Source: a virus (Duplodnaviria > Caudoviricetes). Taken from it: 64,000 bases of DNA. Each line of letters opens with the position of its first letter. Position 1 is the stretch's first letter. A model generated the notes under the pieces. The model searched no databases and was not told where the DNA came from. It worked only from the letters and a program-made list of their open reading frames with translations. Both the position numbers and the translations under genes were made by a program. The stretch is from IMG/VR virus record IMGVR_UViG_3300030098_006079; one strand, 5' to 3'. This document shows positions 55,361 to 56,207 of the stretch, piece after piece.

Positions 55361-55807
55361 ATGAAAAATAAAAAGTATGTTGTTGTGAGTGTTGGAGGAA
55401 TGAATAGTGAGAATGAGAAATGGTTATGTGAATTTAGTAATTTAGATAATTGTTTTGATTATATTAATGAAAAAGTTAATGAAGGTGAGATGTATAATAA
55501 TGATGAAGAATTAGATAGAAATAATATATATTGGGATAGTAAAGAAGAATTAGATATATTTATAAATGATGAGTGGTATGAATTATATAGAAAAGATGTT
55601 AAGTTAAATAAGGATGATGTTATTATTAATATGTGGTGTATAGGTGAGAGTAATATAGTATATGAAGTTGAGTATGATATTAATAAGGGAGATGTAATTG
55701 ATGGTAATGGTGAAGAAGGATGTGTAGTTGGATTTGATAATGATGAAGTATTATTATGGAATGATGGTGAGGGTTGGAGTAGTAAGTTGAGTGATTGTAT
55801 AAAATAA
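55361..55807 (+). CDS. Acidic hypothetical protein (148 aa) encoded with no C
   Basis: ATG after TATAAT (55310) and an A-rich leader; no Ala/Pro/Thr/His/Gln; the track start at 55166 runs through promoter DNA. Confidence 0.75.
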   Translation: MKNKKYVVVSVGGMNSENEKWLCEFSNLDNCFDYINEKVNEGEMYNNDEELDRNNIYWDSKEELDIFINDEWYELYRKDVKLNKDDVIINMWCIGESNIVYEVEYDINKGDVIDGNGEEGCVVGFDNDEVLLWNDGEGWSSKLSDCIK

Positions 55808-55838
55808 AAGTATAGTATAGTATAATAATAAAAATAAT

Positions 55839-56207
55839 ATGAGTAATAGTTATAAAATAGTTAAGGTAGAATATAGTTTAGAAGAATATGGTATTAATAA
55901 TATTGATGTTGTTAAGAGTGAGTTTGGTGTAGATGATGTTGTTAAAGGTGTATTTAAATATAAAGATGAATTGTATTATGAAATTAAAATTATAGATGAG
56001 GAGAATGATATAGGAGTTTTAAGTTATGAAGATGAAAGTATATTATTAGTAATAGGTGATAAGAGTGAATGGTATAATAAAGTAGAGCAGTTTAATTTAG
56101 ATAGTATAGAAAAGGAGGTTGATTTTAGTAATGGAGATTATAATGAAGAAGATTGGGATGATTGGGTAGAGTTTGTTTATAGTATAATGATAAGAATAAA
56201 AGGATAG
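55839..56207 (+). CDS. Acidic hypothetical protein (122 aa) encoded with one C
   Basis: Same aataataaaaataat-ATG leader as 55361; no Ala/Pro/Thr/His, one Gln (CAG). Confidence 0.78.
   Translation: MSNSYKIVKVEYSLEEYGINNIDVVKSEFGVDDVVKGVFKYKDELYYEIKIIDEENDIGVLSYEDESILLVIGDKSEWYNKVEQFNLDSIEKEVDFSNGDYNEEDWDDWVEFVYSIMIRIKG

What the first reader, a model, noticed from the sequence alone, without database searches (positions are those of the whole stretch)
55361..56207. The C-free genes encode strongly acidic, 15-letter proteins resembling DNA mimics
Seen (hand count, approximate): ORF 55361 has 36 D/E vs 14 K/R in 148 aa; ORF 55839 has 31 vs 12 in 122 aa. Both are rich in W/Y/F and have no Ala, Pro, Thr or His (one Gln in total). 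Both have the same aataataaaaataat-ATG leader, which supports real genes. Known: Ocr, Arn, ArdA, Ugi and several anti-CRISPRs are small acidic DNA mimics expressed first. Inference: inhibitors of nucleic-acid- or nucleotide-binding defence enzymes. They are also natural examples of folds from a reduced alphabet. Caveat: A/G/T-only codons themselves favour D/E/K/N, although the D/E excess over K/R is not forced.
Basis: partly seen in the sequence, partly recalled or inferred. Interest (0 to 1): 0.8.

Follow-up and report, generated by a model that had tools for sequence, protein, structure and literature searches.

The report
Acidic proteins from cytosine-free genes
A widespread group of uncultured marine phages carries a small gene cassette written almost without the letter C, so its conserved, strongly acidic proteins use only 15 amino acids; what they bind is unknown, and the DNA-mimic idea is plausible but untested.

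Summary
Window 55232-56249 (1018 nt) has two C. It contains two real genes: A (55361-55807, 148 aa, 36 D/E vs 14 K/R) and B (55839-56207, 122 aa, 31 vs 12). Each uses exactly 15 amino acids.

The reduced alphabet is conserved. In 182 cluster representatives of family B from marine metagenomes, A/P/T/H/Q make up 0.27% of residues. All 48 fetched metagenome loci have a C-poor tract around the gene.

The acidity is not forced by the alphabet. A/G/T-only codons at this composition predict net charge about +10; observed values are -22 and -19. Every protein family found in these cassettes is acidic.

Third codon positions never carry C, against 15-32% of pyrimidine-ending codons in neighbouring genes. 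The tract runs from tandem sigma70-like promoters to a terminal hairpin. Selection therefore acts on the transcript or template.

AlphaFold gives folded models of moderate confidence. A ends in an SH3/Tudor/KOW-like barrel. B matches no known fold. No sequence or fold link to Ocr, ArdA, Arn, Ugi or any Pfam, PHROG or PADLOC family was found.

I favour inhibitors of a C-dependent host RNA or transcription activity. I found no description in the literature searched.

The parts
55116..55137 (+). Intrinsic terminator hairpin plus T-run that ends the upstream 154-aa gene; upstream border of the unit
   Evidence: 9-bp stem, 6 G-C pairs, T-run; sequence
55179..55207 (+). Promoter P1: TTGCAT, 17 nt spacer, TATAAT
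   Evidence: 5 matches to this pattern in the window against 0.5 expected by chance. The same layout is seen in relatives L003 and L006.
55213..55242 (+). Promoter-like site P2 (TTGCAT ... TAAAAT); the last cluster of C before the tract lies in its -35 box and spacer
   Evidence: upstream C in relatives sit in TTGCA boxes
55287..55315 (+). Promoter-like site P3 (TGGAAA, 17 nt, TATAAT); a transcript starting here carries a single C before the terminal hairpin
   Evidence: (10 of 12 matches)
55232..56249 (+). C-poor tract: 1018 nt with 2 C (55286, 56088)
55361..55807 (+). Gene A: 148 aa, net charge -22, 15-letter alphabet, no C in the gene
   Evidence: homologues
55664..55804 (+). C-terminal SH3/Tudor/KOW-like small beta-barrel of A (residues 102-148); relatives also encode it as a stand-alone 62-68 aa protein
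   Evidence: pLDDT 87-91; Z about 7, rmsd 1.1-2.2 A over 43-49 residues
55839..56207 (+). Gene B: 122 aa, net charge -19, 15-letter alphabet, one C; present in every cassette recovered with B as query
56070..56135 (+). Invariant core of B (W78 to G99); the most conserved segment, yet part of it (residues 89-98) is the lowest-confidence part of the model, so it may be a contact motif
56088..56088 (+). The only C inside the two genes: position 1 of CAG (Gln84 of B); the codon is Glu in most relatives
56221..56305 (+). Two hairpins that close the unit (56221-56254 and 56260-56305); C returns in the 3' arm of the first
   Evidence: (z -3.5; 0 of 200 shuffles fold as well)

Best explanation
Shown:
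- A and B are real, conserved genes in an accessory cassette of an uncultured marine phage lineage.
- They sit behind sigma70-like promoters.
- Selection keeps the whole transcription unit free of cytosine. The 15-letter alphabet is a by-product of that.
- The strong acidity was selected on top of it.
- The core of the module is B plus an SH3-like barrel, either as the C-terminal domain of A or as a stand-alone protein.

Inferred: the proteins bind stoichiometrically to a host factor that handles nucleic acid, as competitors or mimics of the nucleic acid. They counter a host activity that needs C in RNA or CTP. Candidates are Rho, whose primary binding sites hold 5'-YC dinucleotides; a C-requiring endoribonuclease of the MazF or MqsR type; and ddhCTP chain termination by a viperin. 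The cassette would be written without C so that its own mRNA can be made and used while that activity is still on.
For: 1. Real genes: P(open) is 3e-9 and 8e-8. Family B has 398 hits in marine metagenomes. B has an invariant core. dN/dS is below 1.
2. The constraint is on nucleic acid. There are 0 C among 143 pyrimidine-ending codons of A and B, against 15-32% C in neighbouring genes. The few residual C inside genes of relatives are at codon position 1 or 2.
3. The tract matches a transcription unit. It starts at the promoters, with upstream C lying in TTGCA -35 boxes, and it ends where the 3' arm of a hairpin begins.
4. The constraint belongs to the cassette, not to one protein. At least 4-5 unrelated families occur in C-poor cassettes, in variable order.
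5. All of these families are net acidic, although the null expectation is basic.
6. Folded models were obtained.
7. Precedents exist. Rho's primary sites bind 5'-YC, and the Sm-like protein Rof blocks them (PMC12360218). Engineered ACA-less mRNAs escape MazF (PMC9102682 and PMC5408214).
8. The cassette behaves as an accessory module. One metatranscriptome contig joins 55095 to 56278 without it, and in L001 it lies on the other side of the 154-aa gene.
Against: - No target is known, and no homology to any inhibitor was found.
- The host is unknown, so Rho, MazF-like toxins and viperins cannot be checked for.
- Early timing rests only on promoter resemblance.
- Other genes behind similar promoters in the window are not C-free.
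- A distant clade keeps 2-3% C, so complete absence of C is not required for function.
- Other acidic small ORFs with normal C content lie nearby, for example 52599-53090. Acidity alone therefore does not single these proteins out.
- The RNA data are assembled contigs only.
Confidence: 0.35

Rival explanations
1. Classical DNA mimics of the Ocr, Arn or ArdA kind. The acidic surfaces imitate B-DNA and block restriction enzymes or other DNA-binding defence proteins. The C-free strand removes every palindromic site that contains G or C from the cassette's own DNA.
For: Size, pI 4.07 and net charge per residue of about -0.15 lie in the range I recall for known mimics. The genes follow promoter-like sites. 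The cassette is accessory and evolves fairly fast, with dN/dS 0.2-0.7. A strand without C cannot carry a palindrome that contains G or C; this follows from the sequence.
Against: No sequence or fold match to any solved mimic was found; this is inconclusive, because mimics share no common fold. Clearing sites from 1 kb of a roughly 200-kb genome does not protect the rest. AT-only palindromes are not avoided: 81 observed against 74 +/- 6.5 expected. The tract follows transcript borders rather than any DNA feature.
Confidence: 0.15
2. Host-takeover or phage-regulatory proteins unrelated to defence. Examples would be binders of RNA polymerase or sigma factor, nucleoid proteins or the ribosome, in the manner of T4 AsiA, MotB or Ndd. 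The C-free coding would then have an independent reason, such as an unstructured, highly translatable mRNA.
For: The predicted mRNA folding energy of the unit is about half that of other parts of the window: -11.2 against -19 to -27 kcal/mol per 100 nt. Leaders are A-rich and lack a Shine-Dalgarno motif. The SH3/KOW-like barrel of A is a common module for binding the transcription and translation machinery. Relatives carry a ribosomal protein S21 gene nearby.
Against: An unstructured mRNA does not need zero C, and such a need would not explain why only this unit is affected. Part of the lineage lacks the cassette or carries it in rearranged form, which is unusual for a core regulator.
Confidence: 0.2
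3. The C-loss is mutational: cytosine deamination on the exposed non-template strand of a very heavily transcribed unit, or attack by a host single-strand cytosine deaminase. The proteins simply drifted into the remaining alphabet, and their acidity reflects an unrelated function.
For: The non-template strand is the one without C. The whole window has a positive GC skew. The surviving C in B is in CAG, where C-to-T would create a stop. A distant clade shows intermediate depletion of 2-3% C.
Against: The step from 15-32% to 0% C at synonymous pyrimidine sites is abrupt at the unit's borders. It has persisted through synonymous divergence above 1. Residual C occur only at codon positions 1 and 2, never at the neutral position 3, which is the opposite of a mutation-drift balance. 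If a deaminase is the agent, C-avoidance is again an adaptation.
Confidence: 0.1
4. The unit works mainly as nucleic acid. The ORFs would be secondary.
For: The strand asymmetry is extreme.
Against: The open frames are far beyond chance. Start codons are conserved, protein motifs are invariant, dN/dS is below 1, and indels stay in frame. Several unrelated protein families all keep their reading frames in the cassettes.
Confidence: 0.05

Closest known systems
T7 Ocr (gp0.3) and T4 Arn, small acidic DNA-mimic anti-restriction proteins of phages (from my own knowledge)
   Same: Small size (about 90-150 aa), pI near 4, encoded behind host-type promoters, accessory.
   Different: No detectable sequence or fold similarity. 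The model of B is beta-rich with one C-terminal helix. Neither the target nor the charge geometry is known. Ocr and Arn genes are not depleted of any nucleotide.
Rof (YaeO), the Sm-like protein that inhibits Rho by occluding its primary RNA-binding sites (PMC12360218, PMC11018607)
   Same: A small beta-barrel protein that blocks an RNA-binding surface preferring 5'-YC. A carries a confidently modelled SH3/Sm/KOW-like barrel. An mRNA without C offers Rho no YC dinucleotides.
   Different: Rof did not appear among the listed structural matches, and there is no sequence similarity. SH3-like barrels are ubiquitous. It is not known whether the host has Rho. This is an analogy, not evidence of membership.
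Engineered ACA-less mRNAs that escape the MazF endoribonuclease in single-protein production (PMC9102682, PMC5408214)
   Same: An mRNA is made immune to a sequence-specific activity by leaving out the recognised letters while keeping the reading frame.
   Different: That system is engineered and uses only synonymous changes. Here the omission is natural, affects a whole nucleotide, costs five amino acids, and is conserved across hundreds of metagenomic variants.
Laboratory proteins built from simplified amino-acid alphabets, including an SH3 domain made largely from five residue types (from my own knowledge, not checked here)
   Same: Proteins, including an SH3-type barrel, that are predicted or shown to fold with a reduced residue set.
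   Different: Those are designed or selected in vitro. These are natural and evolving, and the missing residues (Ala, Pro, Thr, His, Gln) are set by the genetic code rather than by design.

Membership tests
DNA-mimic inhibitor proteins (Ocr, ArdA, Arn, Ugi; a functional class) | Small, strongly acidic protein | tested here: met
   148 and 122 aa; net charge -22 and -19; pI 4.07
DNA-mimic inhibitor proteins (Ocr, ArdA, Arn, Ugi; a functional class) | Sequence or fold similarity to a solved mimic | tested here: inconclusive
   No mimic was listed by the PDB profile search, Foldseek against PDB, VIA-align wide, BFVD or AFDB Swiss-Prot. Known mimics share no common fold, so absence decides nothing.
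DNA-mimic inhibitor proteins (Ocr, ArdA, Arn, Ugi; a functional class) | Surface carboxylates spaced like the phosphates of B-DNA | not testable with these tools
   Model coordinates are not exposed. Model confidence is only moderate (pLDDT 64 and 71).
DNA-mimic inhibitor proteins (Ocr, ArdA, Arn, Ugi; a functional class) | Binds the DNA-binding site of a defined target protein | not testable with these tools
   Neither the host nor the target is known.
DNA-mimic inhibitor proteins (Ocr, ArdA, Arn, Ugi; a functional class) | Expressed at the start of infection | tested here: inconclusive
   Three tandem sigma70-like promoter sites lie upstream. Contigs from metatranscriptome libraries cover parts of A and B but give no timing.
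SH3-like small beta-barrel fold (Tudor, KOW, Sm) for residues 102-148 of A | Superposition on solved barrels over the whole domain | tested here: met
   Z 6.0-7.1, rmsd 1.1-2.2 A over 43-49 residues, with Tudor and KOW domains of Spt5/NusG. Foldseek probability 0.9-1.0 for the same region. pLDDT 87-91. This is fold level only; by the tool's own note Z below 8 can be a common arrangement.
Rof/YaeO-type Rho inhibitors | Homology to Rof, or binding to the Rho N-terminal domain | tested here: inconclusive
   Rof was not among the listed matches, and the PDB profile search found no sequence match. Binding cannot be tested here.
Any curated protein family (Pfam, PHROGs, PADLOC) | A profile match above the family's threshold | tested here: not met
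   Only sub-threshold hits, mostly to families of AT-rich viruses

The most novel reading that the evidence does not exclude
Leaving out a nucleotide is itself a counter-defence device. The phage writes a small operon without C so that its mRNA cannot be loaded by Rho, cut by C-requiring RNases or chain-terminated by ddhCTP. The acidic 15-letter proteins it encodes (B plus an SH3/Sm-like barrel) are nucleic-acid competitors that then switch that host activity off for the rest of the genome.
Probability: 0.3. Interest if true: 0.9.

Novelty: categorically new. Interest (0 to 1): 0.8.

Why it matters
If the reading holds, this would be the first natural case I know of in which selection on a transcript removes a whole nucleotide and so forces conserved, evolving proteins into a 15-letter alphabet without Ala, Pro, Thr, His or Gln.

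- For protein science, it offers hundreds of natural variants of reduced-alphabet folds, among them an SH3-like barrel and a beta/alpha domain that matches no known fold.
- For phage-host biology, it points to a C-dependent host activity strong enough to shape coding in an abundant marine phage lineage, and to a new family pair of probable inhibitors.
- For technology, it offers a natural template for C-less expression cassettes that resist sequence-specific RNases or nucleotide-analogue terminators.

Each idea can be tested directly by recoding the cassette and by standard anti-defence assays.

Tried and rejected
- Cultured phages (INPHARED): no DNA or protein match for the region, A or B.
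- Pfam, PHROGs and PADLOC: no family for A, B or the small cassette proteins.
- PDB profile search: nothing.
- Fold searches for B against PDB Foldseek, VIA wide (best Z 3.5), AFDB clusters, BFVD, ESM Atlas and AFDB Swiss-Prot: nothing convincing.
- Language-model look-alikes: all below 0.9 or unnamed. A rank-36 row at 0.81 carrying Phage_T7_Gp5_9 is within noise.
- Exhaustive profile search with family A: 15 hits, all from the same narrow family or its stand-alone barrel.
- A against B by profile-profile comparison: not related. One 21-column local similarity had probability 0.5%.
- Co-folding of A with B: the tool returned 'no answer' (score 0.00), which counts neither for nor against binding.
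- Host identification through the phage's pilin-like gene in 185,579 genomes: no relative found. No whole genome is held for this window.
- T4-like affiliation: not confirmed from this window's genes by PHROGs.
- Restriction-avoidance test on AT-only palindromes: no avoidance.
- Literature searches on cytosine-free, devoid of cytosine, no cytosines, ddhCTP counter-defence and ACA-less: no report of a natural C-free phage cassette.
- RNA runs: contigs only. One 244-nt contig on gene A has depth 164 in one metatranscriptome, but the tool warns that depth cannot rank genes, so I do not count it as proof of high expression.
- An assembly or chemical-conversion artefact is rejected. The same tract occurs in independent ENA, JGI, Tara, NCBI and Logan assemblies with intact frames.

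Full report
**1. What is in the sequence**

The + strand of window 55232-56249 (1018 nt) contains two cytosines, at 55286 and 56088. The next-longest C-free run in the 64-kb window is 60 nt, and C is 16% of the window overall.

The tract holds two ORFs. A is 55361-55807 (148 aa, P0001). B is 55839-56207 (122 aa, P0002).

A has 36 D/E against 14 K/R. B has 31 against 12. Neither has Ala, Pro, Thr or His, and there is a single Gln, in B. Each protein uses exactly 15 residue types, and both have pI 4.07.

**2. The ORFs are genes**

All three stop codons are free of C, so A/G/T-only sequence of this composition has a stop probability of about 0.125 per codon. Frames of 148 and 122 codons stay open by chance with probabilities of 3e-9 and 8e-8. 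On the opposite strand only TAA can stop translation, yet no ORF of 40 aa or more occurs there.

Family B has 330 hits with the single sequence and 398 with a profile, among 5.8 billion clustered proteins. They come from ENA, JGI, Tara, NCBI and Logan assemblies of marine samples. Family A is narrower: 12 word-based hits and 15 in an exhaustive profile search.

B has an invariant core, W78 to G99, plus many other fixed positions. The A sub-lineages are 42-49% identical and share 35 invariant columns.

Pairwise dN/dS (Nei-Gojobori) is 0.35-1.0 with standard site counts. It is about 0.2-0.7 when sites are counted within the C-free alphabet. The genes are therefore under purifying selection but evolve quickly. 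Change in B concentrates in one indel segment and in the C-terminal tail.

**3. The reduced alphabet is conserved, and the constraint is on nucleic acid**

In 182 cluster representatives of family B (24,368 residues), A/P/T/H/Q total 67 residues, or 0.27%. Of the 182, 127 have none and 49 have one.

Loci fetched by exact protein (L002-L009) and 48 loci from a metagenome scan (L010-L057) all show a C-poor tract around the gene. In the near clade, tracts of about 0.4-1.7 kb hold roughly 1-17 C. A distant clade (48-56% identity to B) holds 17-27 C in 0.7-1.0 kb, or 2-3%, against 11-14% for the whole loci.

A and B have 0 C among 143 pyrimidine-ending codons. Neighbouring genes have 15-32%. The few C inside genes of relatives all lie at codon position 1 or 2, in GCA, CAG, CTA, TCT and ACT, and never at position 3. 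This absence has persisted through synonymous divergence that is saturated between sub-lineages. Selection against C itself explains the pattern better than drift does.

**4. The tract is a transcription unit**

- Upstream lies the terminator of the preceding gene (55116-55137).
- Three promoter-like sites follow. P1 is TTGCAT, 17 nt, TATAAT at 55179-55207. That pattern occurs 5 times in the window against 0.5 expected. P2 is at 55213-55242 and P3 at 55287-55315.
- In relatives, the C upstream of the genes lie in TTGCA -35 boxes.
- Downstream, two hairpins (56221-56254 and 56260-56305) fold with z = -3.5. C returns exactly in the 3' arm of the first hairpin.
- As a direct consequence of lacking C, the predicted mRNA structure is weak: -11.2 kcal/mol per 100 nt. 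Other parts of the window give -19 to -27, and the same sequence with 45% of its G recoded to C gives -17.5.
- AT-only palindromes are not avoided.

**5. The cassette is modular**

Gene order is A-B in the window, L002 and L003, and B-A in L006-L009. Small helical proteins of 49-72 aa are added in many loci.

Every cassette not cut by a contig end has B together with either full-length A or a stand-alone 62-68 aa protein homologous to A's C-terminal domain. The conserved core is therefore B plus this barrel.

At least 4-5 unrelated protein families occur in the cassettes. All are net acidic, with D/E at 22-25% and K/R at 11-14%.

The cassette moves relative to its neighbours: in L001 it lies on the other side of the 154-aa gene. 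One contig from an RNA library joins 55095 to 56278 with 73 other letters in between, which indicates a relative without the cassette.

**6. The acidity is selected**

With the observed base composition and only A/G/T codons, the expected D/E fraction is 11-12% and the expected K/R fraction is 19-20%. Expected net charge is +11.2 (sd 6.7) for A and +10.1 (sd 6.1) for B. Observed values are -22 and -19, reached by none of 20,000 simulations.

At about -0.15 net charge per residue, A and B are the two most acidic of the + strand ORFs of 80 aa or more in the window. The median for those ORFs is 0.00.

It carries no extra meaning.

**7. Structure**

- **B:** AlphaFold2 with the family alignment gives mean pLDDT 70.6 and pTM 0.66. 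The model has a beta-rich region (residues 5-73) and a C-terminal helix (103-121). Residues 89-98, part of the invariant core, have the lowest confidence.
- **A:** mean pLDDT is 64. The N-terminal alpha/beta part is poorly defined. The barrel at about residues 110-145 is confident, with pLDDT 87-91.
- **Fold of the A barrel:** it superposes on Tudor, KOW (Spt5/NusG) and related SH3-like domains, with Z 6-7.1 and rmsd 1.1-2.2 A over 43-49 residues.
- **Fold of B:** it matches nothing convincingly in PDB (Foldseek, and VIA wide with best Z 3.5), AFDB clusters, BFVD, ESM Atlas or AFDB Swiss-Prot.

The alignments are shallow and the confidence is moderate. 'Folded, not disordered' is supported. 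'New fold' is not established.

**8. Function**

No curated family and no solved structure gives a lead. The argument therefore rests on anatomy.

The constraint against C is confined to this unit. It applies to whichever genes sit in the unit, and all of those genes encode acidic proteins. The simplest reading is that the unit must be expressed while something that acts through C in RNA, or through CTP, is active, and that its products deal with that activity.

Three known activities fit:

- **Rho.** Its primary sites bind 5'-YC dinucleotides, and the Sm-like protein Rof blocks it (PMC12360218).
- **Sequence-specific endoribonuclease toxins.** Engineered ACA-less mRNAs escape MazF (PMC9102682 and PMC5408214).
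- **ddhCTP chain termination by prokaryotic viperins.** This is from my own knowledge.

Acidic competitors of nucleic acid are the usual way to block such proteins. This is inference, and I put it at about 0.35.

It fits the proteins equally well, but it fits the coding constraint less well. Clearing sites from 1 kb of a roughly 200-kb genome (contig length) protects little, and the tract follows transcript borders.

The other rivals are:

- non-defence takeover or regulatory proteins, 0.2;
- a mutational (deamination) origin of the C-loss, 0.1;
- a mainly nucleic-acid role for the unit, 0.05.

**9. Comparison with what is known, and novelty**

The proteins work like, at most, small acidic phage inhibitors of the Ocr, Arn or Rof kind. 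Membership of any such family was tested and is unproven.

The coding phenomenon is a conserved natural operon that lacks one nucleotide and so yields evolving 15-letter proteins. None of my six literature queries on this topic found a description of it. Nothing similar was noted on other DNA in this scan.

**10. Limits**

- The host is unknown.
- The phage's T4-like nature and its proposed 7-deazaguanine modification come from unchecked earlier notes. The genes of this window did not confirm them.
- Expression evidence consists of assembled contigs only.
- The A-B co-fold gave no verdict.

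Noticed in passing
window 56381-57031: The 216-aa gene just downstream of the cassette gives weak hits to the protein kinase catalytic-loop region (Pfam Pkinase E 6e-4; PADLOC PD-T4-6 E 3e-5). Its catalytic-loop-like motif reads HTSIKPQN, so the usual Asp is missing. TATAAATA lies about 15 nt upstream of the start. It may be a small phage kinase or pseudokinase following the acidic genes, an arrangement that recalls T7 genes 0.3 and 0.7.
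   Followed up: partly
window 55095-56278 (RNA-library contig): One contig from a marine metatranscriptome library joins 55095 to 56278 with 73 unrelated letters in between. A close relative therefore lacks the whole C-free cassette.
   Followed up: no
L045-L057 (metagenome loci): A distant clade (48-56% identity to B) has the same B plus small-barrel module with only partial C depletion (2-3% C). This may be an intermediate stage, or the result of weaker pressure.
   Followed up: partly
window 203-11338: A 3711-aa ORF built almost entirely of short Asn/Thr/Gly-rich repeats (roughly NTTG..NTA.G), with a distinct non-repetitive C-terminal end. It looks like a giant fibre or adhesin-type protein. 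ORFs of 1241 and 1595 aa follow it.
   Followed up: no
ARAGORN on the whole window called only tRNA-Leu(TAA) at 27834-27920 and tRNA-Thr(TGT) at 29371-29446.
   Followed up: partly
L003 2478-2687: A close relative encodes a ribosomal protein S21 homologue about 3 kb upstream of its C-free cassette.
   Followed up: no
P0142 and P0014: Some database proteins fuse a piece of family A (the barrel in P0142, the N-terminal part in P0014) to a stretch of normal composition containing Pro, His, Ala and Thr. These could be recombinants at the cassette border or assembly chimeras.
   Followed up: no
window 52599-53090 and 58230-58529: Two other small ORFs of the same region are also markedly acidic (-0.12 and -0.14 net charge per residue) but have normal C content. 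Acidity is therefore common among small proteins in this region and is not exclusive to the C-free unit.
   Followed up: no
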